DNA from: a virus
Taxonomy: Duplodnaviria > Heunggongvirae > Uroviricota > Caudoviricetes
DNA: 47,754 nt
Strand: one strand, 5' to 3'
IMG/VR virus record: IMGVR_UViG_2778261224_000004
The notes below the pieces were generated by a model. It saw nothing but the letters and a program-made list of their open reading frames with translations. It made no database searches and was not told the origin of the DNA. Shown one piece after another: positions 7,950-38,200 of this stretch; the first letter of the stretch is position 1, and every line of letters starts with the position of its first letter. A program made the position numbers and the translations under genes.

Positions 7950-10734
7950 AACTTAATCTCCGTTGTTGGAACATATGAGCACTCAATTTCTTCTCAAAAT
8001 CAGAATATCCCGCATCTAATGCTCTTTTAGCTGCCGCCTCAGTTTCCTTTGGTGAACCAGCCGGAAGATTGATTACAGGTGAATAGGTTATTCCACCAGT
8101 CACAGCGTTAACGTTCTGGCGAGGTCCAGAAGTCCCGGCGGCAGATATCCCGTGAGGTGATAAATTTGATTGCCCGAACTTGCTTGCTATTGCATTCTGT
8201 AAGCTGTTATTCCTGCTAACACCTGATGCCAGAGTAGTCATTATTGCACCACCTGACTTTGTTAGCTGTGAGAATGGACCTTTTTTCGCGTCAGAGAACG
8301 GTAAATACTCACGTACAGAAGAAAAAACGCCTTTCACTTCATTAATTAAAGCATTTGCTTTTGATTTTATCCCAGTGATTAACGTCTCAATTATTTTTGC
8401 GCCTGACTCACTCCAGTTTATTCCAGATAAATAAGTCGTTACAGATTGGAATGCTCTTATAAAGAGTCCAACTGGTGAAAAACGCATAAAAACAGATACC
8501 AGTGTATCTATGATTTTCTTTCCTGTTTCGCTCCAGTTAATGCCAGAAAGGTAATTTGTTGTAATTTTAAATGCTTTAATTAAGAACGGAAGCGGAGACA
8601 TCCATTTAAAAGCACTAATTAATGTACTGTAAATTCTTACACCTGCCGAACTCCAGTTTATGTTGGAAAGATAATCCCATGCTTTACCAAACATAGATAT
8701 AATCCATCCATTGAGGTCAAAGTTTAAGATAAAGTTTTTTATAGCCTCAAATGATTTAACTGTATATTCCTTAACAGAAGGCCAAACTCTGACAGCATAA
8801 TCTCTGATCTTATCCCAATTCTGATAGAGCAATATTCCTGCGGCAACCAGCGCAGATATAGCCATCTGAATCCACCCGAAGGGTGTTAGCTTTGTCGCTA
8901 CAGATAAAGCCAGCATAGCTACCCTACACGCTATAACCACACTTTTCATGGTTAGAAACGCACCTGCCGCCATCACTATCTGAGACACAAAATTGGGGTT
9001 GTTAGCTACAAATTCACTAATTTTTGTAATCAGCGGAACCAAAACACTAAGCGCGGCATTCAAAGCAGGTTGCAAGGCCTGACCAAAACTTAATGATGCA
9101 TTGCTAGCCTGAATACGTAATTGTTTCAATCGCTCCGCATTATCTTTCGTTATGTTGGCAAAATCGCGGTCAATAACAGCACTTCCAGCTCCAAGAGATG
9201 TTGCTTTGATTCTCTGGTATTCCTTCCAGTTTTGAATCATCGGACGAACAAAGTTCTGAACCTGCATATCGCCAAATAGTTCACCAAGTAACTTCTGATC
9301 TCCGTTCTTAGTCATTTTCATGACAGAATGCATTGCAGCTTCGAATGGATTCTTCCCTTTTTTCTGCGCTGTTGTAACAATTTTATATAAATCTACACCG
9401 AAATTTTTCTTTGCTTTTTTTAGTGTTTCAGGGGAAAGTATTTTTGCCAAAAAGTTGTTCATATTATTAGCAGCCTCATCCGAAGTTGCAGCCCCCTTGC
9501 GAGCTATCTGCAAAGCTGCACCCATCGTCGCGGCTGCTTCTTTACCTCCCATTTTTAATGCCTGGAACTGAGCACCAAGCACAGGAAGATTTTTGGCCAT
9601 ATCTTTAAATTCAAAGTTCCCCTCTTTCCCTGCCTGAACCAGAATCCCCATTGCAGACTTCATTTGAGATGGATCAATCTTCAATGAGTCACTTAATGTA
9701 AATGATGCTTTCGAGACATCGAGGATATCAGAGCCAGTAGCTGTAGCTGTTCGCCCAATAGTTAGTAGATTCGCCTGAGCCTCTTTATAATCCTGCCCAG
9801 CAGCGACGAGAAAACCCTGAGCGGCCTGAATATCAGATGCAAACTGGTTGGTAGCCGTTCCGGTAACAAGCATCGCCTGCCCCATCGCCTGAACTTCTTC
9901 CGGCTTCATATCTGCCGTAAGACCAATCATTTTGTTTTCACGATTGAAATTTGCTGCATTGTTAGCAGCAGCAAATGCACCAGCCGCTACAGCACCAGTT
10001 TGTAATCCTGACCTTACAAGTTGACTCTTTGCCTCACCAAGATGCTCTCGCTTCAATTCACGCTGCCTTTCCAACGCGCGGTTTAACTCCTCCTGAGCAC
10101 GTTTTACTGCAAGAACATTTTTCCGTGCTTCAGCCAACGCATTTTTATAGCTGTTAATTTTATCAATACGTTGTTTTTCTAATGCCCGGTTAAGTTCCTC
10201 CTGCTGTTTTTTCACTTGCTGAACATTTGCTCTGGCTAAAGCCAAAGCCGTTCTGTAGCGGTTAACCTGCTCAACGCTACGGGCCTGAGCCTCACGATTA
10301 CGATCAATGCTGGCTTTAAGCTCTTTCTCTCTTGAGGCCAAAGCTCTGGCAGATGTATCAGCTCCCTGATAGGCAGACTTTAAAGCGGCCAGTTCTTCAC
10401 GCTGAGAACGTAGTGATGCTCGTAAATTCGATGAATGTGTTTTTGCCTTCTCAAAGTCACGAAGCATCGCTCTGGTTGGATTGGCCGTGTTTTTTATTTG
10501 CTTCTGTAACTCTTCAACGCGAGCGGCAGCTTTATGATATTCGAGGGCAGTCTGTCCAACCTTTACTTTTACAGATTGTAGCTTTTGAATTTCCCCATGT
10601 TCTTTCGTTAATCCAGCAAGCTCGGCATTTAATTTAGCAACAGCCTGATTAGCTGTAGTAAAACTTTTGGGGAGAGAGGCGGCAACTTTGCCGCCAATTT
10701 CAAAAGCCAGCTTAAAGTTCTTATTGCTGGCCAT
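7942..10734 (-). CDS. Tail tape measure protein
   Basis: 930-aa ORF; long N-terminal coiled-coil-like repeats (..EELNRALE.. repeated), central hydrophobic segments; follows frameshifted chaperone gene. Confidence 0.8.
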   Translation of the reverse strand: MASNKNFKLAFEIGGKVAASLPKSFTTANQAVAKLNAELAGLTKEHGEIQKLQSVKVKVGQTALEYHKAAARVEELQKQIKNTANPTRAMLRDFEKAKTHSSNLRASLRSQREELAALKSAYQGADTSARALASREKELKASIDRNREAQARSVEQVNRYRTALALARANVQQVKKQQEELNRALEKQRIDKINSYKNALAEARKNVLAVKRAQEELNRALERQRELKREHLGEAKSQLVRSGLQTGAVAAGAFAAANNAANFNRENKMIGLTADMKPEEVQAMGQAMLVTGTATNQFASDIQAAQGFLVAAGQDYKEAQANLLTIGRTATATGSDILDVSKASFTLSDSLKIDPSQMKSAMGILVQAGKEGNFEFKDMAKNLPVLGAQFQALKMGGKEAAATMGAALQIARKGAATSDEAANNMNNFLAKILSPETLKKAKKNFGVDLYKIVTTAQKKGKNPFEAAMHSVMKMTKNGDQKLLGELFGDMQVQNFVRPMIQNWKEYQRIKATSLGAGSAVIDRDFANITKDNAERLKQLRIQASNASLSFGQALQPALNAALSVLVPLITKISEFVANNPNFVSQIVMAAGAFLTMKSVVIACRVAMLALSVATKLTPFGWIQMAISALVAAGILLYQNWDKIRDYAVRVWPSVKEYTVKSFEAIKNFILNFDLNGWIISMFGKAWDYLSNINWSSAGVRIYSTLISAFKWMSPLPFLIKAFKITTNYLSGINWSETGKKIIDTLVSVFMRFSPVGLFIRAFQSVTTYLSGINWSESGAKIIETLITGIKSKANALINEVKGVFSSVREYLPFSDAKKGPFSQLTKSGGAIMTTLASGVSRNNSLQNAIASKFGQSNLSPHGISAAGTSGPRQNVNAVTGGITYSPVINLPAGSPKETEAAAKRALDAGYSDFEKKLSAHMFQQRRLSFG

Positions 10735-25554: not shown

Positions 25555-25965
25555 TTACTCTGGTATCAAACAGATGTGGCCGTTATTTACCTCAATACGG
25601 GAATATTCCGGCTTACCATCCACGATTCCGGTAATGACAAGTTCGCCATCAGGCGACCATTCTTCTTTGTCGTCTTCAAGTACCGCGCCTTCTGGCAAAT
25701 CAATACAGGCAAAAACAGGGCAGCCAGGATGACGTTTATCCTCCATCGCAATCAGCATCGACTCACCGAACCACTCTGTGGTAGCACGGCCATCAGCCGC
25801 CTGATAGTGAATCAGATACTGGTTTTCGCCATTTGCATACTGAGCACGGGCTTTAACTTCTCCCCATTCGTCACTGATACGCATTGTTACCAGTTGGGAT
25901 AATTCAAACTTAAACGGAACAGCATCTGCACCAATGGCAATCGGTTTATCTTCTTTCTTTTCCAT
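25555..25965 (-). CDS. Hypothetical protein (start moved to Met preceded by AGGTGA RBS)
   Basis: ORF track gives 25555..26034; the upstream part overlaps an intrinsic terminator, and the Met at 25965 has an RBS 5 nt upstream. Confidence 0.45.
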   Translation of the reverse strand: MEKKEDKPIAIGADAVPFKFELSQLVTMRISDEWGEVKARAQYANGENQYLIHYQAADGRATTEWFGESMLIAMEDKRHPGCPVFACIDLPEGAVLEDDKEEWSPDGELVITGIVDGKPEYSRIEVNNGHICLIPE

Positions 25966-25975
25966 AACATCACCT

Positions 25976-26006
25976 GAAAATAAAAAGCCCCGCGACACCG
26001 CGAGGC
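25976..26006 (-). terminator. Rho-independent terminator (minus strand)
   Basis: 8-bp GC-rich stem (one mismatch) with 4-nt loop followed by TTTTTATTTT on the minus strand. Confidence 0.55.
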
Positions 26007-26014
26007 TGTAAGAG

Positions 26015-26167
26015 TTACTTTCGATAGAAATCAAGGCGCAATTGCTCCCGCTTACGCCGAAAAGCTCTCTGCGCCACTAAGATGCGCCACAGGACACCAG
26101 CGATAACCACCAGCGAGATACAAAAACACACGGCCACAACCATCAGAAAAATGCCAACACCATTCAT
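26015..26167 (-). CDS. Small hydrophobic (membrane) protein, 50 aa
   Basis: Hand translation MNGVGIFLMVVAVCFCISLVVIAGVLWRILVAQRAFRRKREQLRLDFYRK; ATGA start/stop overlap with upstream ORF; not in ORF track (<60 aa). Confidence 0.4.
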   Translation of the reverse strand: MNGVGIFLMVVAVCFCISLVVIAGVLWRILVAQRAFRRKREQLRLDFYRK

Positions 26168-26421
26168 GAAACTATCCATTCTTCAATGAATATCTCCAGT
26201 AATATCAAGAGATACGCCGTTCCCAGCGCGGTTCCTACCGATATAGCTAAGACAAACCTCAAAGATAACGAGGTGTCCTTCGCTTTTCTCCAGACGTAAG
26301 CGCCAGCCAGAAATACCAACAAATCTCTTATTGGAAGCGGAAACCAGAACAAATCACTCGGCAAGTCCACGGTTATATCCTTCCATTCATTTTTATCGGG
26401 TGACCAGATAGCCTTAGGCAA
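26164..26421 (-). CDS. Hypothetical membrane protein
   Basis: 85-aa ORF with hydrophobic C-terminal half; start uncertain (overlaps previous ORF by 49 nt). Confidence 0.4.
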   Translation of the reverse strand: MPKAIWSPDKNEWKDITVDLPSDLFWFPLPIRDLLVFLAGAYVWRKAKDTSLSLRFVLAISVGTALGTAYLLILLEIFIEEWIVS

Positions 26422-26828
26422 TTGAGCTGTAAAGCTCCTGTATCAACTAAATGATCAACTAACATGATTAGAGATTCATATTCAGCCAGATAGCTAACCT
26501 GACGCATTCGACCGCCGTTGTTCTCCAGAATGTCAGCCACCTTTGCAGCCAACTCGCTTAGACAGAAGAACTTATTCCCATATATCGTTTTATACTCGCG
26601 CTTCTGGCATTCTTCGGCTTGCGGCTGGTTATCGAGAGCTATCAGCGACCGATGGCTATCAATGAAGTCCACAATCTCATTCAGGCATTCTTTAGCTGCC
26701 TCATCGTGACTTTTTCCGTATGCTTCACGGAGGACTTTCATCCTCATCATTGCTCCGTCACATATAGTCGAAAGCGCGTAAAGCACATCACTAACCGCCA
26801 TTTCTTTTTTGGTGCTTGTCGAAGGCAT
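26373..26828 (-). CDS. Hypothetical protein
   Basis: 151-aa ORF in accessory block. Confidence 0.45.
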   Translation of the reverse strand: MPSTSTKKEMAVSDVLYALSTICDGAMMRMKVLREAYGKSHDEAAKECLNEIVDFIDSHRSLIALDNQPQAEECQKREYKTIYGNKFFCLSELAAKVADILENNGGRMRQVSYLAEYESLIMLVDHLVDTGALQLNCLRLSGHPIKMNGRI

Positions 26829-26902
26829 CCCATGTTCTCCTTTGTCTGGATGTAAAAAAGCCCCGGCAATTGCCGAGGCTCGTTGTTCGTTATCGTTACG
26901 GT

Positions 26903-27103
26903 TTAATGCTCGCGTCGTCCGGCGACAACTTCGGATTTGTATTTCAGGTCGCCCAGCAAGAATTGCAGTTTAAGCATCTTTGCCGCCGTGTAGTTCCCTG
27001 ATTCCACAACCTCTTTCATGAGGTCATAAACGGCCGCTACATCATCAGCCAGGAACTCTTTGCGTTGCTGCTCAGTCGCACGTTTGAAGGAAATACGCAT
27101 CAC
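26903..27103 (-). CDS. Hypothetical protein
   Basis: 66-aa ORF, ATGA overlap with upstream gene. Confidence 0.4.
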   Translation of the reverse strand: MMRISFKRATEQQRKEFLADDVAAVYDLMKEVVESGNYTAAKMLKLQFLLGDLKYKSEVVAGRREH

Positions 27104-27369
27104 TCATCATCTCCTGCCGCACATACAACCTCACAAAAAAAATCAGCAGAATGTTTCTCCTTGAACGAATGACGCTCAAAACCGCACTCAATATCAGGCG
27201 CAAAAACATCCACCACATACGGTCTTTCAGAATGTTTGTTTTCCCAACGATAAACCGTAGTGACGTTGAAATGTTTTAACGCTTCACGGAACTCAACGCT
27301 GCCCGTCAGGTTTTTTGAGGTCAGGTATTGCAGGAGGTTTTTTACTACTTCACGGTCTTGTACTTTCAT
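27100..27369 (-). CDS. Hypothetical protein, first gene after repeat copy A
   Basis: 89-aa ORF; GGAG RBS 8 nt upstream of ATG inside the conserved 112-bp cassette. Confidence 0.45.
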   Translation of the reverse strand: MKVQDREVVKNLLQYLTSKNLTGSVEFREALKHFNVTTVYRWENKHSERPYVVDVFAPDIECGFERHSFKEKHSADFFCEVVCAAGDDE

Positions 27370-27478
27370 CGGGTTATCTCCGGTTTAACCAGGGCGGGTA
27401 TCGCTCGGTTTCGGGTATAACCATAGGAAATTTTTTCCCATCTGTAAAGCACTTTTTATATAAATCTATAATTATATA
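27367..27478 (-). promoter_or_regulatory. Conserved ~112-bp promoter/leader cassette, copy A
   Basis: More than 95 percent identical to 34245..34355 and 43156..43267; contains AT-rich motif, TTTACA-N17-TATGGT promoter-like hexamers, leader and RBS. Confidence 0.55.
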
Positions 27479-27481
27479 ATT

Positions 27482-28069
27482 CTATGACACTTGCCAGAGA
27501 GCATCATGCAACTGGATACCTCCGTTGCACTGGTTGCCCCAGCCATGCCAGCCATCAGGTAAATCACCGCGAGCAAACAGCTCAATACGAGGAACATCGC
27601 CTAACAGCTTTACCAGCTTGTCACGGACCACATCAGGCTTCCGAGAATGCTCCAGACGAGGCGATGTAAACGACTGAATGATCCCCGCATCAAGACGTGT
27701 CGGTAGTTTGCCTTTCACTGCAAACAAGCAATCTTCACTGTTTGCACGAGTCATATGCCCCATCCCCATCACCAGCTTATCTGGTTGTCGGCTACCACAT
27801 TTGTTCCATGTGAAGCCCTTCATGGTCATCAGCCTGAATCCCCATGCTTTCACCACCAGCAACGCTTCTTCTGGCTGAGTCGGAACCCACCACATGGCCA
27901 ACAAACACGATTCAGGATTAGCAAGCTGCCAGACAGGAATACGAGCAATATCCTCAGCTTTCATCGTTGGATACTTAAAACCAGCGCCACGATTCCCATC
28001 CTTACACTTGTCTTTGTATTCCCAGGGGGGATCTGCATAAATCAGATTAAACAATGCAATTGCCTCCAT
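27482..28069 (-). CDS. MT-A70-family N6-adenine DNA methyltransferase
   Basis: 195-aa ORF with catalytic motif YADPPWEY near the N-terminus. Confidence 0.7.
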   Translation of the reverse strand: MEAIALFNLIYADPPWEYKDKCKDGNRGAGFKYPTMKAEDIARIPVWQLANPESCLLAMWWVPTQPEEALLVVKAWGFRLMTMKGFTWNKCGSRQPDKLVMGMGHMTRANSEDCLFAVKGKLPTRLDAGIIQSFTSPRLEHSRKPDVVRDKLVKLLGDVPRIELFARGDLPDGWHGWGNQCNGGIQLHDALWQVS

Positions 28070-28376
28070 GTTAGTTGTGTCTCCGGCGCTTATCTCCGGC
28101 AGTCATAACGCTGGCCAGCTCTACAGCAAACACAACGAAAAGGGCGCTAACCAGACTGATTAATGCCCTTGCCTGTTGTGTGCCGGATATCGCCCGACAA
28201 CGCTGTTTTGGTAACACGGCTACAGTTCCGTGCCGCTCCAGCTTTTACCCCTTTGCGGATAACAGGCCCTGCCTGTAACTTAGCCCCACGTTCGCCCGAA
28301 ATGCGCACCAGGCACGCATAAAGATGAGCACGAAGAAGTAACTCCACCGCGCTTATCTTTATGTGTGAGAGTGAAT

Positions 28377-28452
28377 TGGTGGCCCCTACCGGATTTGAAC
28401 CGATGACCGTGCGATTATGAGTCGCCTGCTCTAACCACTGAGCTAAGGGGCC
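28377..28452 (-). tRNA. tRNA with CAT anticodon (Met or lysidine-type Ile2), encoded CCA end
   Basis: Hand-folded cloverleaf GGCCCCTTAGCTCAGTGGTTAGAGCAGGCGACTCATAATCGCACGGTCATCGGTTCAAATCCGGTAGGGGCCACCA: 7-bp acceptor stem, D arm, anticodon loop CTCATAA, T loop TTCAAAT. Confidence 0.85.
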
Positions 28453-28461
28453 ATATTTGAT

Positions 28462-28545
28462 TTGTTTGTCTGGTGTGGCGCCGCGCACGAAAATCCCAGC
28501 CAATAAATTCAGGATTTTTGGGCGCGGCGGCATATCAGACAAACA
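28462..28545. repeat. 84-bp imperfect palindrome (nested inverted repeats) next to the tRNA 5' end
   Basis: Inner arms 28477-28496 and 28512-28530 (about 19 bp, GC-rich), outer arms 28462-28472 and 28536-28545. Confidence 0.5.
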
Positions 28546-28621
28546 TGGTTGATGCGTGCGCCCATGAGAAAAGCGCATAGAATGTTGTAACTATATATTT
28601 ATATAATTATAGAAATATATA

Positions 28622-28831
28622 TTACTTTGGACAGTTGATTTCCCATGCCATGTTATGAGCCAGAATATCTTTCTTTGTCTGGCGGTCCATAACATCGATG
28701 TCGTGATCAGTCAGGTAGATGGGCTTTACCCAATCACAGGCGGTATCAACCACCACCGGGACGCTTCCACGACTCCCGCAGCTCGCGATCAACATCGTCA
28801 TCAGCCATATGGTTAACACTCTGCTGTACAT
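28622..28831 (-). CDS. Rz1-like outer-membrane lipoprotein (o-spanin candidate)
   Basis: 69-aa ORF with signal peptide and lipobox LIASC, in the +1 frame overlapping the 3' end of the Rz-like gene. Confidence 0.5.
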   Translation of the reverse strand: MYSRVLTIWLMTMLIASCGSRGSVPVVVDTACDWVKPIYLTDHDIDVMDRQTKKDILAHNMAWEINCPK

Positions 28832-29024
28832 TCCCCACCTCTTTTGTCACTTCTATACGCCGCTCCGCAGTGGCTTTTACGGCGGCTGCATTCTCATTAA
28901 TGCGCTGCTTTTCAGCTTCATCTTCGGCCTTTTCTCGCCCTTTCATACGACCAAAACCAAACGCGCCGAATGCAACCAATATAATTGTGCCAATAAATGA
29001 CAACACGGCCTTCAAACCAGTCAT
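28746..29024 (-). CDS. Rz-like inner-membrane spanin (i-spanin candidate)
   Basis: 92-aa ORF with N-terminal TM segment and charged periplasmic part, ATGA overlap with endolysin stop. Confidence 0.5.
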   Translation of the reverse strand: MTGLKAVLSFIGTIILVAFGAFGFGRMKGREKAEDEAEKQRINENAAAVKATAERRIEVTKEVGNVQQSVNHMADDDVDRELRESWKRPGGG

Positions 29025-29563
29025 ACCACCACTCGCTCTTTCATCCAGCCGTAGACAAACGACTCATTAGCCTCGCGCTTCTCCGCCAACTCCAGATAGC
29101 GTTCGCCCTGCGTACAGTTCAGCGACGTCAGCATCACCCGTTCGCCGTCTTTTCCCCGATTCCCAAGATAAGCACGTAGCGCATTAATGGTACGTGGACC
29201 GATTCGTCCGTCTGCATCCAAATCGGGATACAGCTTCCCGCGCAGGTTGAACACATTCAGCCAGCGTTGAAGCATTTTTGACGCCACTATTGGCCCCATG
29301 TTCACCCCCGTGTCACACAGCTCTGCGGCAATATCAGAGGATAATGCGGCCACCTGATCAAAGCGTGGTCCGTACCAGTAATCAGCCTCAAGGATTTCCA
29401 GTGCCTGTTCGCGGGTTAAATCGCGCATATCGCCACGGTATCCATGAGCACGGGCAGAGTTCTGAGTAATGCCCCACTTTGTTGGGCCTCCCTTGTCGTC
29501 AGGGTGATCCACATAGCCGCCCTCTTTTCCAAGAACGCTGTTAAAAATCTCATCTTTGGTCAT
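29021..29563 (-). CDS. Endolysin, GH108 family with peptidoglycan-binding domain
   Basis: 180-aa ORF; N-terminal ..GKEGGYVDHPDDKGGPTKWGIT.. typical of GH108 lysozymes. Confidence 0.75.
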   Translation of the reverse strand: MTKDEIFNSVLGKEGGYVDHPDDKGGPTKWGITQNSARAHGYRGDMRDLTREQALEILEADYWYGPRFDQVAALSSDIAAELCDTGVNMGPIVASKMLQRWLNVFNLRGKLYPDLDADGRIGPRTINALRAYLGNRGKDGERVMLTSLNCTQGERYLELAEKREANESFVYGWMKERVVV

Positions 29564-29882
29564 GATTAAACCCTAATGCGTCAACTATCCGCGCCAGATT
29601 GCCCCTGAAATACAGAACAACGATGCAGATAATCAGATTTCCAATAACCACCAGCCAGTGGGATTCTTGATAAAGACCGAACACATAACGGAAGGGAACA
29701 TTGGCGTATACAATGACGTAGATATAAGCCAGAAAGGAAACAAATGGACGATGCCTGGAGTCTTTCCGTCGATAAAGCATCAGCGCCATTACTATTACTG
29801 TGCAAAGCACCGCATTAATCAGTGCTGACGGGTCACTGCTTACCATTTGAACCCCCTCCACGTAATCGGGAAAGCATTCCAA
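29550..29882 (-). CDS. Holin/antiholin-like membrane protein (start uncertain)
   Basis: 110-aa ORF with hydrophobic helices; internal Met at MVSSDPSAL is an alternative start. Confidence 0.45.
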   Translation of the reverse strand: MECFPDYVEGVQMVSSDPSALINAVLCTVIVMALMLYRRKDSRHRPFVSFLAYIYVIVYANVPFRYVFGLYQESHWLVVIGNLIICIVVLYFRGNLARIVDALGFNHDQR

Positions 29883-30228
29883 AGATGCTACCGAGATCCT
29901 GGCTGTTTACGAACGTGAGGATTTTAATGGTCAATGCAGCCACAATAACCGCACCAAGCGCATCCAGAGGACGATCGTTGTAGCTGGTCCATTTGGCAAG
30001 AAATGAGCCAACTAACGGCGCTCCAATCACTCCAACAATGAACGATGTAAAGAAATAGCCAATCAGCTTGAGACGGCTAATATTCACCGCTGTAGCAACA
30101 TAGAAAACAGCGCCAGCAAATGCCCCGAATACAACGCCGTAATCAATACCAGTTGCAATACCAAAAACGCTGGCACCCATCAGGCCACCAGCAGCAACGG
30201 CCGTACCGGAAATTGGTTCTGCTGACAT
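29833..30228 (-). CDS. Holin-like membrane protein
   Basis: 131-aa ORF, Gly/Ala-rich TM segments, first gene of lysis block. Confidence 0.5.
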   Translation of the reverse strand: MSAEPISGTAVAAGGLMGASVFGIATGIDYGVVFGAFAGAVFYVATAVNISRLKLIGYFFTSFIVGVIGAPLVGSFLAKWTSYNDRPLDALGAVIVAALTIKILTFVNSQDLGSIFGMLSRLRGGGSNGKQ

Positions 30229-30241
30229 TGAAATCCTCGTT

Positions 30242-30272
30242 AAAAAAAAAGCCCCGCCGAAAAAGGCAGGGC
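30242..30272 (-). terminator. Rho-independent terminator (minus strand) just upstream of the lysis cassette
   Basis: Minus strand GCCCTGCC-TTTTTC-GGCGGGGC stem-loop (8 bp incl. one G-U) followed by nine T. Confidence 0.7.
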
Positions 30273-30418
30273 TTCATAAAGCAACAAATTACGCGGTAAT
30301 CGCTTAACGCAGTTTTACTACGTTAAATGAAACACTACACCCAGTTACCACCTAAAACAAGGTTTCCCCATAAAAAAACCTTCATATCGTGGTTAATCGA
30401 TCAATAAAAAAGCAATGT

Positions 30419-30610
30419 TCAACTTTTTACCAACTGAACATCCCGACCAGGACTTCCATAATATTCGCCGATATTCCACTGCTTAAGTTGAGTAATCTTC
30501 TCCAACTTAACTCCCACAGAATCCAATTTCTGCCATGTTTTCGGTTGTATGTGCCTCATTACCCGCTCTGAATATCTAAATACTGCTCGTAGCCTCGCTA
30601 AATTGCTCAC
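30419..30610 (-). CDS. Hypothetical protein
   Basis: 63-aa ORF, ATGA overlap with upstream gene. Confidence 0.35.
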   Translation of the reverse strand: MSNLARLRAVFRYSERVMRHIQPKTWQKLDSVGVKLEKITQLKQWNIGEYYGSPGRDVQLVKS

Positions 30611-31368
30611 TTGTCGCCTCCTTTACGAATCTGTTCCGCCCACTCCTCAAGAGATTTCTCCGCATATTCACCGGACAGGCCATCAATCGGGTGCGGTTCA
30701 TTAGCCAACTCTTCTTTCGCTGACAAAATCATGCGTGTAACGTCGAAAACTTCACGCAAAGACTTATTGATAAATCCGTGATTGAACGCAGCAGCAAGAC
30801 GGCTTGCGGTGTAGTTAATCCCCTCGTTGCGTGCCTCCGCACGTATTTCAGCCAGGAAAGCATCGGTGGCTGGAATGGGCTTTTGTGGTGATATAGCAAT
30901 GCGAATTGTCTCAAGGTCTGGAGCTGTTTCCGCTGTTGGCACCTTGATATAACCCGTCTGCACCCCATTCATGATGAACCTGCGACGGTCATCACATATC
31001 GCCTTAAGCCCTGCATTCTCCGCCGCCAGCGCCGCACGACTGGCCTCCAGTTCAGCAATGCGTTTGCTTTGTGCTTCCCGTTCATTCAGCAACGCCTGCA
31101 CTACTTCTGGGTTGAAAGCTGCGATATAACGAGCGTTGTTCTCTGCGTTTTTCTGTCCGTCAAAGCCGGTCCATTTGATAACGTCTTCACATCGTTTATC
31201 ACCGGGTGTATGCACCGCATATGTACCAGTACCCGACGAAATAAATGCGACCCATTCGCCCTGTGTTGCCTGTTTTGCTATCTCACGTAGTGCCTGATAG
31301 TTAATTGCTGTGCTGTTAGTCATTCCAGGCCTCCAGCTCGTTCTGAATCTCCTCGTCAACCTCGTCAT
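30607..31368 (-). CDS. Hypothetical protein (possibly Ead/Ea22-like; start may be at Met 31323)
   Basis: 253-aa ORF with central coiled-coil-like segment; family assignment by recollection only. Confidence 0.4.
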   Translation of the reverse strand: MTRLTRRFRTSWRPGMTNSTAINYQALREIAKQATQGEWVAFISSGTGTYAVHTPGDKRCEDVIKWTGFDGQKNAENNARYIAAFNPEVVQALLNEREAQSKRIAELEASRAALAAENAGLKAICDDRRRFIMNGVQTGYIKVPTAETAPDLETIRIAISPQKPIPATDAFLAEIRAEARNEGINYTASRLAAAFNHGFINKSLREVFDVTRMILSAKEELANEPHPIDGLSGEYAEKSLEEWAEQIRKGGDK

Positions 31369-31660
31369 TGGTGGCGTCTTCGTTCAGATGGTCGCGCGCC
31401 TCTTTGAGATACTGTTCACGGCGTTCGTGGTACCAGGCTGAGAACTCCGGCGACCATCCTCGATTAGCCCCCTGAAAATCTACCATCGCATTATCCTCGG
31501 CCATACGCTCGACCATGCAATCCGCGGTGTTCAGTGCAACCTCACGGATGTACCCCCGCAGGTCGCGCTTACGCCAATACGGGCTATATTTTGAGTCGCA
31601 GCGGCCTTTAAATTCGACGGTCCAGCGACGGATGCAGCGTGCGTTAAGTGATTTGCTCAT
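31316..31660 (-). CDS. Hypothetical protein
   Basis: 114-aa ORF with acidic C-terminus. Confidence 0.4.
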   Translation of the reverse strand: MSKSLNARCIRRWTVEFKGRCDSKYSPYWRKRDLRGYIREVALNTADCMVERMAEDNAMVDFQGANRGWSPEFSAWYHERREQYLKEARDHLNEDATNDEVDEEIQNELEAWND

Positions 31661-31662
31661 AG

Positions 31663-32274
31663 TTATGCTTCCTTAATACGCTTAAACTCAATTACCCATA
31701 CCCACGGGTTAGATAGCCAGTTCTCTTGCCCGTAAATACCGCGCCAGATATCACCAAAGCCAACGCGATAAACAGCTTCCGGCGGTGTAATCTTGTACGT
31801 CACCGGAGATGCGCCTTCTGCTTTAGCATCTGCCTCGCTCATGTCATGTAGCCGTTCCACACGCACGTCGGTTATTTCCAACAGAATACGGCTGGCCCAA
31901 CGTGGCATGTGAATTGATGGGGTCCAACCCTCAGCTGGCTTGCTACTATCTGAGTAATCAGCCTTGTAATCACACAGTTCAGAAGCCAGAGAGACACCAT
32001 CTTTGATTTCCTGAATGACATCGTTATCCAGCCAAAAAGCGTTGAATGTTTCACGTACCCATATGCGATCACCAACGTTACCGAACGGGCATAAACCATG
32101 TTCCGGTGCATCCATAACGTGGGTATAGACACCATTGCGTTTCTTTGTCGGTTTACGGATAACCAGGCAGTTATCGGCCCTGACATTTTTTACAGGTCGG
32201 CGAGTCTGCGTCTTCCTTCCTTCGAGGATGGCCCTAACCATATCGTCATTAAAAACAACACCACGTTCTTTCAT
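31663..32274 (-). CDS. Hypothetical protein (possible ASCH/PUA-like fold)
   Basis: 203-aa ORF; N-terminal ..MVRAILEGRKTQTRRP.. pattern. Confidence 0.4.
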   Translation of the reverse strand: MKERGVVFNDDMVRAILEGRKTQTRRPVKNVRADNCLVIRKPTKKRNGVYTHVMDAPEHGLCPFGNVGDRIWVRETFNAFWLDNDVIQEIKDGVSLASELCDYKADYSDSSKPAEGWTPSIHMPRWASRILLEITDVRVERLHDMSEADAKAEGASPVTYKITPPEAVYRVGFGDIWRGIYGQENWLSNPWVWVIEFKRIKEA

Positions 32275-32525
32275 TTAGAAGCCACCTTGTTCAATTTCCG
32301 GCGACAAGACACGCAATCATCAGGACTCTCAAAAGTGTCTGGCTCACGGTAATCACCAAAATACATCCAACGGCCGCAAATGCTGGTTACTTCACCTTCA
32401 TTAAAATAATGATGTTTATTCGCCTTCATTGGCCTGACCCATCCGGCATTTTTCTTGCTCACTTCAACTCCTCCCGACGACGTTCCTGAAGCTCTAGCAT
32501 TGCGGCTCGGAAATCCTGCCACCAT
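32271..32525 (-). CDS. Hypothetical Cys-containing small protein
   Basis: 84-aa ORF; likely shorter from an internal Met. Confidence 0.35.
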   Translation of the reverse strand: MVAGFPSRNARASGTSSGGVEVSKKNAGWVRPMKANKHHYFNEGEVTSICGRWMYFGDYREPDTFESPDDCVSCRRKLNKVASK

Positions 32526-32824
32526 TCCTCATCGGCTACTGGGGTGTTCCGCTCCAGCACCTTGTCCGCATCGGCGATCAGGTTTGCCAGACTCTTGTCT
32601 GAAATCTTCGTTACCGGAGTCGTTGGTTGCTCAACCTGCCCGATAGGTTTTATCGTGCTCAAAAGGAGGCGACGGCGGGAAAGTGGTGCCCCACAACGAC
32701 GGCCATCTTCCTTGCGATATGTTTCTTTCGGACCAACACACCAGGTTGTCGGCGTCTCGCGCAACTTCACTTTTTTCTCACCATCATTGGTAATGATTAT
32801 TCCGGTATGGGTTTTGATGCTCAT
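32459..32824 (-). CDS. Hypothetical protein
   Basis: 121-aa ORF. Confidence 0.4.
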   Translation of the reverse strand: MSIKTHTGIIITNDGEKKVKLRETPTTWCVGPKETYRKEDGRRCGAPLSRRRLLLSTIKPIGQVEQPTTPVTKISDKSLANLIADADKVLERNTPVADEEWWQDFRAAMLELQERRREELK

Positions 32825-33123
32825 GCCACAGCCCCTCTCAACGGCTTAACTTTGGCTAATAAGGTGTTAAACAACATGGAGTTAGGATTCATGCCAAATG
32901 GCAATTCCGGTTTAGCGGAGTAGTACAGGCAACCATTTATTTTCCTGGTTGTTATCTGTCCTTCGGCAACCATGCTTCTCAGTCTGCAACGCATAGAGTT
33001 CTGCGACACACCAATGTGCTCCGCGATTACGTCCACTTTTGAACATGGGTGATCGGTCAGGAAATTAATCACATCTTGGGGGTTAATAATTTTGCGTTTC
33101 ATTGTCGAGGCGTCCTTATACAT
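32821..33123 (-). CDS. Hypothetical protein, possible winged-helix DNA-binding regulator
   Basis: 100-aa ORF; own AT-rich motif copy immediately upstream (33125-33150). Confidence 0.4.
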   Translation of the reverse strand: MYKDASTMKRKIINPQDVINFLTDHPCSKVDVIAEHIGVSQNSMRCRLRSMVAEGQITTRKINGCLYYSAKPELPFGMNPNSMLFNTLLAKVKPLRGAVA

Positions 33124-33179
33124 TTATATAAATATATAATTCTATATATGGCGGGAGACGTCCCGCCGTAGGCTTACTG

Positions 33180-34247
33180 TCAGGCTTTCAATAGCGATTC
33201 TTTTAGATATCGGGCATCAGCCAGGGCGTTTGGAGTAATCTTGCGAACCCATGCATTACGGGTTGGACTCCACTTAAAGGCGCGTGATTTAAGCAGCGAA
33301 CGAATGTTTGCCTCTGGTTTGCCAGGGAAATAAAACAGGATGCGGTTATCCTCTGGATCTATCTCCATAGAAAAGCCGTCGTATTCTTCGCGCTGTGCTC
33401 CTGTTACAGACTTGACCGATTCAAGCTCCTTAATACGGCTCTGTAGTCGTTTGATTTCGGCGTTATTGTTGCTCAGTGCGTATGAAGGGAATCCGATGCG
33501 CCCACAGAAATCTCCGGCCAGTAACTCTTTGGCTTCGCTTTCTGTAAACCTGAGATCGATTAATGCAGAAAGCTGCTGTATTTGGTCTTTTTTGTATTTG
33601 CGAATGGCCTTATTTGCGGCCTTCATTTTGACGTGTGACTTCATGCAGCCTTGCAGCTTACGAAGCAACTTAAATAGCGCATCAGGATCATCAGACGAAA
33701 TTCCATTACGACCAACACCTGCGGCTTTGCTCTCGTAGTGTGATGCTTTACTTTCGCATTCAACAAACGCTTTTCTGAATAACGCATCAGCTTTAGACAA
33801 ACGGCGGCGATGGCCTTTCGCGCTATAATGGTCAACTAAAATCGGCTGGCCTAACGGGATCACATCCAACAGGTCATGCGCTCGCTTATGCGCTACCGCA
33901 CCTTCTTTTCTGGCTTTTTCTGCACGAGCAATATATCGGGCAAGACGCGCGTTCTGGCGTTCCTGATAGGTGTTTACGTAATCATCTCCGCGCTGCTGCT
34001 GTTCAAGCCATGCTTTGCGCAGATCTTCTGTTACGTCCACCAGCTCCGCAGGGATACAACCAGTTTGGGCTTCATAAGAGTAACCATCCTCATAGATACG
34101 CCCATCGTCTTCAACAAAGAAAAAGGTTTCGTGCTCATCGCTTTTGACCATACGACCATTAACATGGCGTAATAGGTAGCCAGTATCAGTGCTTAACAGG
34201 CTGTTAGGGTTGTTGATCCAGTCAGAAATAATTACTTGTTTATTCAT
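33180..34247 (-). CDS. Hypothetical protein (DUF3560-like by recollection), first gene after repeat copy B
   Basis: ORF track gives 33180..34301; start moved to Met 34247, which aligns with the start codons of the other two cassette copies and has a GGAG RBS. Confidence 0.45.
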   Translation of the reverse strand: MNKQVIISDWINNPNSLLSTDTGYLLRHVNGRMVKSDEHETFFFVEDDGRIYEDGYSYEAQTGCIPAELVDVTEDLRKAWLEQQQRGDDYVNTYQERQNARLARYIARAEKARKEGAVAHKRAHDLLDVIPLGQPILVDHYSAKGHRRRLSKADALFRKAFVECESKASHYESKAAGVGRNGISSDDPDALFKLLRKLQGCMKSHVKMKAANKAIRKYKKDQIQQLSALIDLRFTESEAKELLAGDFCGRIGFPSYALSNNNAEIKRLQSRIKELESVKSVTGAQREEYDGFSMEIDPEDNRILFYFPGKPEANIRSLLKSRAFKWSPTRNAWVRKITPNALADARYLKESLLKA

Positions 34248-34355
34248 CAGATTTCTCCGGTTTAACCAGGGCGGGTATCGCTCGGTTTCGGGCATAACCA
34301 TAGGAAATTTTTTCCCACCTGTAAAGCACTTTTTATATAAATCTATAATTATATA
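34245..34355 (-). promoter_or_regulatory. Conserved ~112-bp promoter/leader cassette, copy B (immediately downstream of Q-like gene)
   Basis: Near-identical to copies A and C. Confidence 0.55.
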
Positions 34356-34416
34356 TTTATAGATTTTCGATGTTCCCGATGTCTACACACCATCAAAACA
34401 GCTCAAAATGACACTT

Positions 34417-34794
34417 TTACTCTCTTCGCTTTTTCAAATAGTCGACAACATACGCCCTGGCTTTTGCCAGCTTCCGGCGATACTGTCTGAGGCTAAGAGA
34501 AAGGGCGTGGGCTTTATCAATATGCGGTGCATTTATGTCGAGGCCCCGAATCTCCCACGCCCCGTATTCAATTCGGACAACCAGCGCCGCAGTCTCATCA
34601 ACTACCGTGAGGGCCGTCACCGCTCCCTCTATACTGGTTTCCAGTGAGTCATTTGGTGCGCCGCCCCCTCCGGTAAACTGGCAGCGCGTAACCATCATCA
34701 TTTCTAACATCGACGCGAAACCGCTACGGGCGTTGCAGCCATTGCGCACCCACAGCGCCCATAGCTCAAACAAGCTATCCAGATCGCGTCTCAC
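34417..34794 (-). CDS. Putative late antiterminator, QuuD-like (Phage_antitermQ family)
   Basis: 125-aa ORF; N-terminus MRRDLDSLFELWALWVRNG resembles the QuuD-type start MRDIQMVLERWGAW as recalled; followed by promoter cassette B. Confidence 0.45.
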   Translation of the reverse strand: MRRDLDSLFELWALWVRNGCNARSGFASMLEMMMVTRCQFTGGGGAPNDSLETSIEGAVTALTVVDETAALVVRIEYGAWEIRGLDINAPHIDKAHALSLSLRQYRRKLAKARAYVVDYLKKRRE

Positions 34795-36786: not shown

Positions 36787-36904
36787 ACCACGATACGTGG
36801 TATTAAAACCACATATCGTGAGTTTTTCAATGGGCGAAACAAAAAATAACCTTCTATTTGTGGTCCACCTCTCGTCTTACCATGTGAAAACCACTAAATG
36901 TGGT
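36787..36904. promoter_or_regulatory. Immunity-region operators: palindromes ACCAC-N5-GTGGT between divergent repressor and Cro-like genes
   Basis: Sites at 36787-36801 (ACCACGATACGTGGT), 36808-36822 (imperfect) and 36890-36904 (ACCACTAAATGTGGT). Confidence 0.6.
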
Positions 36905-37640: not shown

Positions 37641-37655
37641 ACCACATTTTGTGGT
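37641..37655. promoter_or_regulatory. Operator-like palindrome ACCACATTTTGTGGT between repressor gene and downstream ORF
   Basis: Perfect outer half-sites; adjacent TTGACA at 37657-37662. Confidence 0.45.
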
Positions 37656-38069: not shown

Positions 38070-38089
38070 AAGCGGGCTAACGCCCGCTT
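38070..38089 (+). terminator. Hairpin (candidate terminator) after the 124-aa ORF
   Basis: AAGCGGGC-TAAC-GCCCGCTT perfect 8-bp stem; downstream tract AT-rich rather than a clean T run. Confidence 0.45.
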
Positions 38090-38200
38090 ATATGATTATA
38101 GATTTATATAATTATATAAAACGCTTTTCATCAGCCAAAAAGTTGGTTATGCTTACCTCGTTCTATAAATATAGATTTATAGAATTATATAACCAAACAC
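38085..38200 (+). promoter_or_regulatory. Two copies of the AT-rich ATTATAGATTTATAtAA motif upstream of parA (promoter/centromere candidate)
   Basis: Motif at about 38090-38115 and 38165-38190; a third copy lies upstream of parG at 38861-38900. Confidence 0.45.

What the first reader, a model, noticed from the sequence alone, without database searches (positions are those of the whole stretch)
27367..27478. Triplicated ~112-bp promoter/leader cassette heading three minus-strand operons
Near-identical cassettes occur at 27367-27478, 34245-34355 and 43156-43267. Each includes the start codon, a GGAG RBS, about 50 nt of leader, promoter-like hexamers (TTTACA-N17-TATGGT or close variants) and the AT-rich motif. 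Copy B lies immediately downstream of the Q-like gene, the position of lambda pR'. Intrinsic terminators lie downstream of copy A (25976-26006) and copy B (30242-30272, just before the lysis genes), consistent with antitermination-dependent late transcription; a sequence-specific activator is an alternative.
Basis: partly seen in the sequence, partly recalled or inferred. Interest (0 to 1): 0.7.

Follow-up and report, generated by a model that had tools for sequence, protein, structure and literature searches.

The report
Triplicated promoter-operator cassette in phage-plasmid
A 114-bp block holding a promoter, two likely protein-binding sites and a ribosome-binding leader is copied three times in an E. 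coli phage-plasmid and kept alike by gene conversion. It most likely puts three accessory operons under control of the plasmid's partition protein and a second repressor, and does not look like a lambda-style late promoter.

Summary
Three direct copies lie at 27366-27479, 34243-34356 and 43155-43268 on the minus strand, 90-97% identical, with sharp edges at an AT-rich array and at the ATG.

The window is a circular ~47.7-kb E. coli phage-plasmid with IncFII-type RepA, ParA, a CI-type repressor and myovirus genes. Every complete relative carries exactly three copies.

Each cassette has four parts:
- 3-4 units of an 8-bp AT-rich repeat. The same repeat also brackets the parA promoter, precedes the small ParA-partner gene, and occurs at two further sites (8 sites, 0 expected by chance).
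- A sigma-70 promoter, TTTACA-N17-TATGGT.
- A 17-bp palindrome, TAGGAAA-N3-TTTCCTA, overlapping the -10. A fourth promoter shares it.
- An invariant ~46-nt leader with GGAG.

Copies cluster by genome, not by locus, which indicates gene conversion. The operons they drive are clade-specific and each ends in a terminator.

The 125-aa protein does look weakly like a Q21/AlpA-type antiterminator, and the lysis and packaging genes have no promoters of their own. But the E. coli cassettes lack a pause element and a Q21-type binding element, and relatives with the same Q-like protein lack the cassette core.

Best reading: operator-controlled promoter cassettes wired into a ParG/omega-like partition regulon. 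This is a new variant of a known kind, of moderate interest.

The parts
27366..27479 (-). Cassette A. Array units 27456-27479 (a fourth unit extends to 27487); -35 TTTACA 27448-27443; 17-bp palindrome 27440-27424; -10 TATGGT 27425-27420; leader palindrome CTGGTTAAACCGG 27392-27380; GGAG 27381-27378; ATG 27369-27367. Heads the 89-aa and 66-aa genes, followed by terminator 26881-26858.
34243..34356 (-). Cassette B. Array 34333-34364; -35 34325-34320; -10 34302-34297; ATG 34247-34245. Heads the DUF3560 gene (33180-34247) and the operon that runs down to terminator 30275-30248.
43155..43268 (-). Cassette C. Array 43245-43268; -35 TTTACG 43237-43232; -10 TAAGGT 43214-43209; ATG 43158-43156. Heads the 126-aa gene (42778-43158) and the Xre-type HTH gene (42442-42714), followed by the bidirectional terminator 42367-42394.
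38088..38192 (+). parA control region: array 1 (38088-38119), a promoter TTTTCA-N17-TATGCT with the same array-to-(-35) layout as the cassettes, and array 2 (38161-38192) in the leader.
38201..38869 (+). Small Walker-type ParA partition ATPase (type Ib-like; the PGAP-annotated start corresponds to 38216).
38869..38900 (+). Array 3, between parA and the small partner gene, 12 nt upstream of its ATG.
38913..39161 (+). 82-aa ParA partner, the candidate ParG/omega-type ribbon-helix-helix centromere-binding protein and proposed reader of the 8-bp arrays.
33116..33147 (-). Array directly upstream of the winged-HTH gene (start 33102), inside the cassette-B operon.
28591..28622 (-). Array upstream of tRNA-Met (28377-28452) and the MT-A70 methyltransferase gene.
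45236..45264 (-). Fourth promoter, TTGCCA-N17-TACCAT, carrying the same 17-bp palindrome (TAGGAAA-AGA-TTTCCTA, 45240-45256). No array and no cassette leader. Heads the 99-aa and 96-aa genes.
34417..34794 (-). 125-aa protein: sigma-region-4-like HTH with weak Q21/AlpA/PA0613-family similarity. It is the last gene of the early operon.
42442..42714 (-). 90-aa Xre-family HTH protein encoded in the cassette-C operon, a candidate binder of the 17-bp palindrome (inference only).
30248..30275 (-). Intrinsic terminator ending the cassette-B transcription unit. The holin ATG follows at 30228 with no room for a promoter.
25986..26007 (-). Intrinsic terminator upstream of the packaging module. The next ATG is at 25964.
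26858..26881 (-). Intrinsic terminator ending the two-gene cassette-A operon.

Best explanation
The three copies are paralogues of one composite expression cassette in a ~47.7-kb E. coli phage-plasmid.

Each copy contains:
1. An array of 3-4 AT-rich 8-bp repeats abutting the -35. The same repeats bracket the parA promoter and precede the partner gene.
2. A good sigma-70 promoter (TTTACA-N17-TATGGT).
3. A 17-bp palindromic operator (TAGGAAA-N3-TTTCCTA) that fills the spacer and overlaps the -10.
4. An invariant ~46-nt 5' UTR with GGAG, ending at the ATG.

Proposed mechanism, all inferred:
- The small ParG/omega-like ribbon-helix-helix partner of ParA coats the arrays, one dimer per 8-bp unit. 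The arrays serve both as centromere sites and as operators.
- Three accessory operons, the par operon, a winged-HTH gene and a tRNA/methylase unit would therefore respond together to the concentration of partition protein, and so to plasmid copy number.
- A second, clade-specific dimeric regulator binds the palindrome over the -10 of the three cassettes and of a fourth promoter and represses them. It may be the Xre-type HTH protein encoded by the cassette-C operon.
- The shared leader gives the three first genes the same translation start region.

What is shown: gene conversion keeps the copies alike within each genome. What is inferred: read-through of the terminators at the ends of these operons into the lysis and packaging genes during lytic growth probably needs the Q21-like 125-aa protein. 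Its loading site is not identified and is probably not the cassette itself.
For: Identity of the element:
- IncFII-type RepA, ParA, CI-type repressor, P1-type C4/isrK plus antirepressor module, and myovirus structural genes.
- 65 non-mobilizable ~47-49-kb plasmids, and Yersinia phages isolated as virions.

Arrays:
- The 24-mer occurs at 8 sites against 0 expected.
- All 8 sites are syntenic in Salmonella.
- Motif orientation follows the direction of the downstream gene at 7 of 8 sites.
- In the seven relatives compared (four array types) the parA promoter region carries that lineage's own AT-rich 8-mer arrays (on both sides in five, downstream only in L008, and less regular in L009), and where dispersed sites were found they use the same 8-mer type.
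- The four array types match the four variants of the partner protein's predicted DNA-reading strand: M[AS]FNV, LL[FL]RL, L[NH]F[NS]V, LLTFNI.

The ParA partner:
- Predicted as a disordered tail, a short extended segment and two helices.
- Aligns in register with the RHH of ParG 1P94 (hhalign P 0.0023).
- Known precedents: the ParG operator and centromere have 4-bp boxes plus 4-bp AT spacers, one dimer per box (PMC3130281). Omega2 arrays sit at the copS, delta and omega promoters and double as centromeres (PMC4627068).

The palindrome:
- Exactly 4 copies per genome in the E. coli and Salmonella plasmids, each between -35 and -10.
- Perfect 7-bp arms in Salmonella.
- In L010 the homologue of the cassette-C gene has ATAGGAC-N5-GTCCTAT over a TATTAT -10, so the half-site has changed symmetrically.

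Concerted evolution:
- Within-genome copies are 94-99% identical, orthologues between two E. coli strains 96-98%, and E. coli against Salmonella 85-91%, with the same substitutions in all three copies.
- SD-ATG spacer variants are swapped among copies in different strains.
- The cassette is 88% conserved while the proteins it drives are 45-70% conserved.

Accessory nature of the driven genes:
- They are absent from L005 and L007-L010, apart from one homologue.
- Each operon ends in an intrinsic terminator.
Against: - No binding, transcription or expression data were available. The transcription start site is only predicted.
- The RHH assignment is weak: hhalign probability 12.6%, no Pfam or PDB sequence hit, and nothing from the fold search.
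- Co-variation of array type with the partner protein is confounded by phylogeny. The Q-like protein's HTH helix also tracks lineage, and Q21 itself binds direct repeats with 8-bp spacing (PMC6606751). A Q-like reader of the arrays is therefore not excluded.
- Whether array binding represses or activates cannot be told. Omega2 does both.
- The binder of the palindrome is unknown. L010 has the operator-like palindrome but no homologue of the Xre protein was found on that 13-kb contig.
- The model does not specifically explain why ~46 nt of leader are invariant. There is no covariation and the predicted fold is weak (z about -1.4 to -1.8).
- Cassettes A and B are the only intergenic sigma-70-like promoters facing the lysis and structural genes, so a role in late transcription remains possible.
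Confidence: 0.55

Rival explanations
1. The cassettes are late promoters of the lambda pR' type. RNA polymerase starting in a cassette is modified by the Q-like 125-aa protein, which binds a cassette element, and then reads through the downstream terminators into the lysis (B) and packaging/structural (A) genes.
For: - The 125-aa protein is weakly Q21/AlpA-like and sits at the end of the early operon, 52 nt before cassette B.
- The terminators are followed directly by the next gene's SD and ATG, so read-through is required.
- No other convincing sigma-70 promoter faces the late genes.
- A conserved protein-binding element lies between -35 and -10, the position used by the Q21 and AlpA binding elements (PMC6606751, PMC9371919).
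- Salmonella copies have a -10-like GATAGT at about +13.
Against: - The E. coli copies have no A2/T6 -10-like hexamer in the first ~35 nt.
- The spacer element is an inverted repeat, not a direct one. It and the cassette core are absent from the five more distant relative contigs (L005, L007-L010), whose Q-like HTH helix is nearly the same.
- A fourth promoter with the same palindrome drives a small operon beside repA and the toxin-antitoxin genes, far from the late genes.
- Cassette C points away from the late genes.
- In Salmonella a 147-aa gene separates the Q-like gene from cassette B.
- The terminators lie 0.5-4 kb downstream, after complete ORFs.
Confidence: 0.2
2. The AT-rich 8-bp arrays are binding elements for the Q21-like protein, whose HTH resembles sigma region 4, and not for the partition protein. 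The Q-like protein would load or activate at all eight array sites, including the par operon.
For: - Q21 binds two direct subsites with 8-bp spacing (PMC6606751; bioRxiv 10.1101/651190).
- An array follows the Q-like gene directly, or within about 60 nt, in the window, L007, L008 and L010. In Salmonella an extra gene intervenes.
- In L005 and L008 the array overlaps the -35 region of a promoter with a good TATATT -10. In L005 that promoter is followed by a short leader and a terminator.
- The arrays contain consensus TATAAT hexamers that could act as pause elements.
Against: - In the cassettes the arrays lie at roughly -38 to -62, too far upstream for a Q21/AlpA-type element, which must sit about 17 bp upstream of the pause element.
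- The arrays are the only repeats in the par locus, which needs a centromere.
- Array sequence differs strongly between lineages, while the Q-like recognition helix changes little and the partner protein's beta-strand changes more.
Confidence: 0.12
3. The conserved leader is the functional core. It would be an RNA element, for example a put/nut-like antitermination signal, a target of a translational repressor or small RNA, or a thermosensor. The promoter and array would then be conserved only because gene conversion carries them along.
For: - About 46 nt are invariant in all copies within E. coli.
- The E. coli to Salmonella changes fall only in the predicted loop and the single-stranded parts.
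- A small palindrome overlaps the SD.
Against: - No Rfam family matches, even at E <= 1.
- The fold is no better than shuffled sequence (z -1.4 to -1.8).
- Zero compensatory pairs.
- No complementary sequence of 12 nt or more elsewhere on the plasmid.
- The L010 homologue of the cassette-C gene keeps the operator layout but has a different leader.
Confidence: 0.1

Closest known systems
Omega (ω2) regulon of pSM19035 / inc18 plasmids
   Same: A small ribbon-helix-helix partner of a small ParA (delta) binds arrays of short contiguous repeats placed at several promoters on the replicon (copS, delta, omega). These sites are both operators and centromeres, so partition, copy control and stability genes are co-regulated (PMC4627068, PMC9499535). 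Here the same short repeat lies at the par promoter and at six or seven other transcription-unit heads.
   Different: The repeat is 8 bp and AT-rich, not the 7-bp WATCACW heptad. The host is an enterobacterial phage-plasmid. There is no sequence similarity to omega. Three of the sites are embedded in a 114-bp cassette that also carries a second operator and a fixed leader. Binding has not been shown.
ParF-ParG-parH of TP228 (type Ib partition)
   Same: A small Walker ParA is followed by a roughly 80-aa protein with a flexible N-terminal tail and a C-terminal RHH. The operator and centromere are built from units with an 8-bp period (4-bp box plus 4-bp AT-rich spacer), one dimer per unit, placed upstream of the operon (PMC3130281). 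The in-register hhalign alignment to ParG 1P94 has P 0.0023.
   Different: In TP228 the repeats are confined to the par locus. Here they are dispersed over the replicon. The box sequence differs (TATA-type against ACTC). Homology is not established (probability 12.6%).
Lambdoid pR'/Q late-gene cassette (Q21, AlpA)
   Same: A Q21/AlpA-like gene lies at the end of the early operon. A promoter follows with a protein-binding element between -35 and -10. Terminators precede lysis and structural genes that have no promoters of their own (PMC6606751, PMC9371919).
   Different: There is no conserved sigma-dependent pause element. The spacer element is palindromic and is absent from relatives that have the same Q-like protein. 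The terminators lie after whole operons. There are three copies, and one does not face late genes.
Prophage morons (promoter-gene-terminator insertions)
   Same: Each cassette-driven unit has its own sigma-70 promoter and its own intrinsic terminator, and consists of lineage-specific genes inserted between conserved modules.
   Different: Morons normally have unrelated promoters. Here three units share one promoter/operator/leader cassette that is homogenised by gene conversion and tied to the partition repeats.

Membership tests
Type Ib partition system with RHH centromere-binding protein acting as a global regulator (ParG / omega type) | Small Walker-type ParA without an N-terminal DNA-binding domain | tested here: met
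   222 aa. Pfam CbiA/ParA/MipZ hits; NCBIfam ParA_partition E 4.7e-22 (below the curated cut-off); PHROG ParA-like E 2e-39.
Type Ib partition system with RHH centromere-binding protein acting as a global regulator (ParG / omega type) | Small partner gene immediately downstream that encodes a ribbon-helix-helix protein with a flexible N-terminal tail | tested here: inconclusive
   An 82-aa ORF starts 44 nt after parA. AF2 predicts a disordered stretch 1-40, an extended MAFNVD segment and two helices (pLDDT 65). hhalign against ParG 1P94 aligns in register, P 0.0023 but probability 12.6%. No Pfam, NCBIfam, PDB-sequence or Foldseek hit.
Type Ib partition system with RHH centromere-binding protein acting as a global regulator (ParG / omega type) | Arrays of short repeats at the par promoter | tested here: met
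   In the window two 4-unit arrays bracket TTTTCA-N17-TATGCT and a third precedes the partner gene. The parA promoter regions of the six relatives compared also carry lineage-specific AT-rich 8-mer arrays, on both sides in Salmonella, L005, L007 and L010, downstream only in L008, and less regular in L009.
Type Ib partition system with RHH centromere-binding protein acting as a global regulator (ParG / omega type) | The same repeats at promoters of other genes on the replicon (global regulon) | tested here: met
   8 sites against 0 expected. All are syntenic in Salmonella. In relatives where dispersed sites were found they use the par-type motif.
Type Ib partition system with RHH centromere-binding protein acting as a global regulator (ParG / omega type) | The protein binds the repeats, regulates transcription and supports partition | not testable with these tools
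   Needs EMSA or ChIP, reporter assays and plasmid-stability assays.
Q-dependent late promoter (pR' type; Q21/AlpA paradigm) | Antiterminator of a Q family encoded just upstream | tested here: inconclusive
Q-dependent late promoter (pR' type; Q21/AlpA paradigm) | Sigma-dependent pause element (-10-like, A2 and T6) in the initially transcribed region | tested here: not met
   No A2/T6 hexamer within about +1 to +35 in any E. coli copy. Salmonella has GATAGT at about +13.
Q-dependent late promoter (pR' type; Q21/AlpA paradigm) | Q-binding element between -35 and -10 that goes with the Q protein | tested here: not met
   The element present is an inverted repeat. It is absent from L005-L010, which encode Q-like proteins with a near-identical HTH helix.
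Q-dependent late promoter (pR' type; Q21/AlpA paradigm) | Terminator shortly downstream, ahead of the late genes | tested here: inconclusive
   Terminators exist and are followed directly by late genes, but they lie about 0.5 kb (A) and about 4 kb (B) downstream, after complete ORFs.
Moron (autonomous promoter-gene-terminator unit in a prophage) | Own promoter, own terminator, and genes absent from related phages | tested here: met
   Promoter-like sites and terminators. The driven genes are absent from L005 and L007-L010 except for one homologue. Expression in the lysogen was not tested.
Known RNA families (Rfam 15) | A covariance-model match in the leader | tested here: not met
   No match at gathering score or at E <= 1 over 25900-34500.

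The most novel reading that the evidence does not exclude
The partition protein of this phage-plasmid family is a genome-wide transcription regulator of the phage. Its 8-bp arrays mark the heads of the transcription units downstream of the early operon, including the boundary just after the Q-like antiterminator gene and, in one relative, the site just before the holin. If so, plasmid partition and copy number would be coupled directly to the lysis-lysogeny programme. The 114-bp cassette would be a portable 'plug' that recruits newly acquired operons into this regulon and is kept uniform by gene conversion.
Probability: 0.3. Interest if true: 0.7.

Novelty: new variant of a known kind. Interest (0 to 1): 0.48.

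Why it matters
Phage-plasmids are common in clinical Enterobacteriaceae, yet it is poorly understood how they coordinate plasmid maintenance with phage development.

If the reading is right, this family shows two things:
- An omega/ParG-style centromere-binding protein has been extended into a regulon that spans phage genes.
- A composite promoter-operator-leader cassette is copied in front of newly acquired operons and kept identical by gene conversion. That is a simple evolutionary route for wiring accessory genes into an existing control circuit.

The family also offers a tractable test system. E. coli ATCC 25922, a standard laboratory strain, carries a member of it.

Tried and rejected
- Antisense or small-RNA partner for the leader. 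No complementary or repeated word of 12 nt or more from the promoter/leader part occurs elsewhere in the window.
- Known RNA family. Rfam finds nothing in the cassettes, at gathering score or at E <= 1.
- Stable leader structure. MFE is -9.6 to -9.9 kcal/mol with z -1.4 to -1.8, and no compensatory pairs appear in 10 copies.
- Control by the CI-type repressor. Its likely operator, ACCAC-N5-GTGGT, is perfect at 36787, 36890, 37641 and 46867 but is not in the cassettes.
- A separate pR'-like promoter ahead of the holin terminator. The region is highly conserved, but I could not find a convincing promoter there by eye.
- Cassettes as deletion endpoints. The 32-kb single-copy plasmid NZ_CP024829.1 lacks roughly 23.3-40 kb, but the endpoints are not at cassettes.
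- Membership of the pSLy3 phage-plasmid group. That group belongs to the ~100-kb SSU5 supergroup.
- Expression data. The supplements of an ATCC 25922 RNA-seq paper contain no plasmid genes.
- Wider distribution. An exact leader pattern gave 0 hits in GTDB species representatives and 2 contigs in IMG/VR.
- Fold search with the 82-aa monomer model. No meaningful hits.
- Defence-system annotation of the cassette-driven proteins. No PADLOC hits.
- Counterpart of the cassette core in L005/L007. Local alignment scores equal those of shuffled queries.
Full report
OBSERVATION

The repeat finder reports one family of three 114-nt direct repeats at 27366-27479, 34243-34356 and 43155-43268, with 90% and 97% identity to copy A. 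Read on the minus strand and aligned, the copies become identical at an AT-rich block and diverge at or just after an ATG. The flanks are unrelated. Each copy reads:
- TTATATAATTATAGATTTATATAA
- AAAGTGC
- TTTACA
- 17-nt spacer
- TATGGT
- about 46 nt of leader
- GGAG
- 7-8 nt
- ATG

Copy C has the weaker hexamers TTTACG and TAAGGT.

WHAT THE REPLICON IS

The window ends overlap (1-77 equals 47678-47754), so this is a circular element of 47,677 bp. It encodes the following:
- an IncFII-type RepA;
- a small ParA;
- a CI-type HTH/S24 repressor;
- a HigB/RelE-type toxin-antitoxin pair;
- a P1-like isrK/C4 antisense RNA plus antirepressor module;
- lysis genes and a complete myovirus morphogenesis module.

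Near-identical DNA is found in 65 non-mobilizable ~47-49-kb plasmids of E. coli, E. albertii, E. fergusonii, K. aerogenes and Salmonella. Three Yersinia phages isolated as virions also match. It is therefore a phage-plasmid. It is not the pSLy3/SSU5 group. In the listed records, every plasmid of about full length and all three phages hold exactly three cassette copies; a 94-kb record has six places. In Salmonella the copies sit in front of the same three gene homologues.

WHAT THE CASSETTES DRIVE

- Copy A heads an 89-aa and a 66-aa gene, then a terminator.
- Copy B heads a DUF3560 protein and a string of small genes ending in an Ea22-like gene, then the terminator before the holin.
- Copy C heads a 126-aa gene and a 90-aa Xre-type HTH gene, then a bidirectional terminator. 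This operon converges on the antirepressor operon.
- None of these proteins has a known function or a PADLOC hit.
- They are absent from the five more distant relative contigs, except for one homologue of the 126-aa gene in L010. These are clade-specific accessory operons with their own promoter and terminator.

THE AT-RICH MOTIF IS THE REPEAT OF THE PARTITION LOCUS

The 24-mer occurs at 8 sites against 0 expected. It is built from 8-bp units (TTATAKAW), 3-4 per site.

Where the arrays lie:
- Two arrays bracket the parA promoter. That promoter (TTTTCA-N17-TATGCT) has the same array-to-(-35) layout and partial sequence similarity to the cassette promoter.
- A third array lies between parA and an 82-aa ORF.
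- The others lie in the three cassettes, upstream of a winged-HTH gene, and upstream of tRNA-Met.

The 82-aa protein:
- It is predicted as a disordered tail, a short extended segment and two helices.
- It aligns in register with the ribbon-helix-helix of ParG, whose recalled sequence I verified as identical to PDB 1P94. The hhalign P value is 0.0023 and the probability 12.6%.
- No family or fold search confirmed it.

Published precedents:
- ParG's operator and centromere are 4-bp boxes separated regularly by 4-bp AT-rich spacers, with one dimer per box (PMC3130281).
- Omega2 of pSM19035 binds repeat arrays at several promoters that double as centromeres, and it can activate or repress depending on occupancy (PMC4627068).

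COMPARATIVE TEST

Relatives were found through the 125-aa protein. They share the backbone of repA, toxin-antitoxin, ParA plus small partner, CI, and an early operon ending in the 125-aa gene.
- Each lineage has its own array type: GATATA/TATATC in L007 and L010, TTAAATAA/TTTAATTA in L005 and L008, and TATACATA in L009.
- In each lineage the parA promoter region carries arrays of that lineage's own type (on both sides in L005, L007 and L010, downstream only in L008, and less regular in L009). In L005, L007, L008 and L010 the same type occurs at sites outside par, including at or soon after the end of the 125-aa gene. In L007 it also lies just before a terminator and the holin.
- The predicted DNA-reading strand of the ParA partner falls into four variants that match the four array types.
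- The HTH helix of the 125-aa protein changes less but also tracks lineage, so this test is suggestive and not decisive.
- The winged-HTH, Xre and DUF3560 proteins cannot be the array reader, because relatives with arrays lack them.

A SECOND OPERATOR

The spacer contains a 17-bp palindrome, TAGGAAA-N3-TTTCCTA, whose right arm supplies the first two bases of the -10.
- It is perfect in all Salmonella copies and 6/7 on the left arm in E. coli.
- A fourth promoter has it too: TTGCCA-N17-TACCAT at 45264-45236 in the window, and TTGCAA-N17-TACCAT in Salmonella. That promoter lies upstream of a conserved small operon between repA and the toxin-antitoxin genes.
- The core GGAAA-N3-TTTCC occurs exactly four times per genome in the E. 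coli and Salmonella plasmids and not at all in L005-L010.
- In L010 the homologue of the 126-aa gene is preceded by ATAGGAC-N5-GTCCTAT running into a TATTAT -10. That is the same layout, with the half-site changed on both arms and a different leader.

This is the signature of a dimeric repressor's operator. The CI-type repressor is unlikely to be the binder, because its probable operator is ACCAC-N5-GTGGT. That motif is perfect at 36787, 36890, 37641 and 46867 and is absent from the cassettes. The Xre protein of the cassette-C operon is a candidate only.

CONCERTED EVOLUTION

- E. coli and Salmonella cassettes differ at the same positions in all three copies.
- Across four genomes the copies cluster by genome and not by locus. 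Within-genome copies are 94-99% identical, orthologues between two E. coli strains 96-98%, and copies between genera 85-91%.
- SD-ATG spacer variants are swapped among copies in different strains.
- The cassette (88%) is better conserved than the proteins it drives (45-70%). ParA, its partner and the 125-aa protein are 91-95% conserved.

THE Q QUESTION

The 125-aa protein has no Pfam hit of its own. The evidence for a Q-type assignment is as follows:
- The six best Foldseek matches of its AF2 model (pLDDT 77) are Q21, with probability 0.57-0.89 and E 0.3-0.65.
- An exhaustive profile search finds 130 relatives. Among 109 of them PF06530, the Q21 family, is the commonest Pfam match (10 members, best E 1e-4).
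- NCBIfam PA0613 family matches end to end at E 2.5e-4.

It is therefore plausibly a Q21/AlpA-type factor. Each terminator on the late strand is followed within about 15-25 nt by the next gene's SD and ATG. The late region shows no excess of promoter-like sites, 26 against 43 expected. Antitermination is therefore likely to operate in this phage.

The cassettes nevertheless fail the defining features of Q21/AlpA loading sites (PMC6606751, PMC9371919, bioRxiv 10.1101/651190):
- There is no A2/T6 pause hexamer in the E. coli leaders.
- There is no direct-repeat element in the spacer.
- There is no counterpart of the cassette core in relatives with the same Q-like helix.
- The arrays lie at about -38 to -62, too far upstream.

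THE LEADER

No Rfam family matches. The predicted fold is unexceptional. There is no covariation and no antisense partner. Its invariance is explained only in general terms, by gene conversion plus selection for a shared translation start. This remains the weakest point of the account.

VERDICT

The triplication is real and biologically meaningful. The best-supported reading is a composite promoter/operator/leader cassette. It places three accessory operons under the partition protein's repeat arrays and under a second, palindrome-binding repressor, and gene conversion keeps the copies uniform (confidence about 0.55). The pR'/Q reading is partly right about the surroundings but probably wrong about the cassettes themselves (about 0.2). 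No step of binding or regulation has been shown experimentally.

Noticed in passing
window 30243-30413 (-): The non-coding stretch just upstream of the holin, ending in terminator 30275-30248, is almost identical between E. coli and Salmonella over about 110 nt. That is more conserved than the neighbouring coding sequence. It gives a sub-threshold full-length Rfam GcvB match (34.3 bits against a gathering score of 42, E 1e-4). It could be a GU-rich small RNA or a lambda-6S-like late leader. I saw no convincing promoter upstream.
   Followed up: partly
window 45236-45264 (-); L002 29083-29111: A fourth promoter (TTGCCA-N17-TACCAT) carries the same 17-bp palindrome as the cassettes but has no array and no cassette leader. 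It heads a conserved 99-aa plus 96-aa operon between repA and higBA.
   Followed up: partly
window 36787-36801, 36890-36904, 37641-37655, 46867-46881 (one mismatch at 39488 and 40153): A palindrome, ACCAC-N5-GTGGT, is probably the operator of the CI-type repressor. It occurs in the cI/early divergent region, upstream of the 124-aa gene, just upstream of repA, and near the immI RNAs. This suggests the phage repressor also controls plasmid replication.
   Followed up: partly
window 39559-39855 (-), 40227-40299 (+), 40324-40412 (+), 40654-41835 (+): Rfam matches above gathering score to ryfA, isrK and the C4 antisense RNA lie upstream of a 393-aa antirepressor-like gene. This is a P1/P7-type immI module in a non-P1 phage-plasmid.
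   Followed up: no
window 28377-28452 (-): A tRNA-Met (CAT) lies inside the mechanical ORF 28147-28578, which matches a PHROG of unknown function and is probably spurious. An 8-bp array sits just upstream of the tRNA.
   Followed up: partly
window 38206-38218, 33102-33112; L007 6375-6388; L010 after the Q-like gene: Several array-linked genes share the start region (G)AG(A/T)C(C/T)TCGACAA(A)TG. These are parA, the winged-HTH gene, and the first gene after the Q-like gene in L007 and L010. This looks like a second, smaller conserved module of array plus translation start.
   Followed up: no
window 1-77 and 47678-47754: The window ends are identical over 77 nt, so the sequence is a circular (or circularly assembled) 47,677-bp replicon.
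   Followed up: yes
L004 (NZ_CP037908.1 1-4491): A 28.5-kb conjugative cfr plasmid carries the array and the first half of a cassette promoter (48 nt, 98% identical), cut off by IS26. It lies next to higBA-like genes and a ParA plus small-ORF pair. This is a fragment of the phage-plasmid captured in a resistance plasmid.
   Followed up: partly
L015 (NZ_CP024829.1): A 32-kb relative lacks roughly window 23.3-40 kb, which covers cassettes A and B, the lysis genes, the early operon, cI and par. It is nevertheless recorded as a complete circular plasmid.
   Followed up: partly
L005 9260-9400: In a distant relative, a TTGACA plus array promoter with a TATATT -10 is followed by a ~70-nt leader and an intrinsic terminator directly before the next genes. 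This is a pR'-like unit about 700 nt downstream of its Q-like gene, and it may be where the Q-like protein acts in that lineage.
   Followed up: partly
window 8393-8674: Three 42-nt repeats at exactly 120-nt spacing lie inside the tape-measure gene, probably reflecting a repeated protein segment.
   Followed up: no
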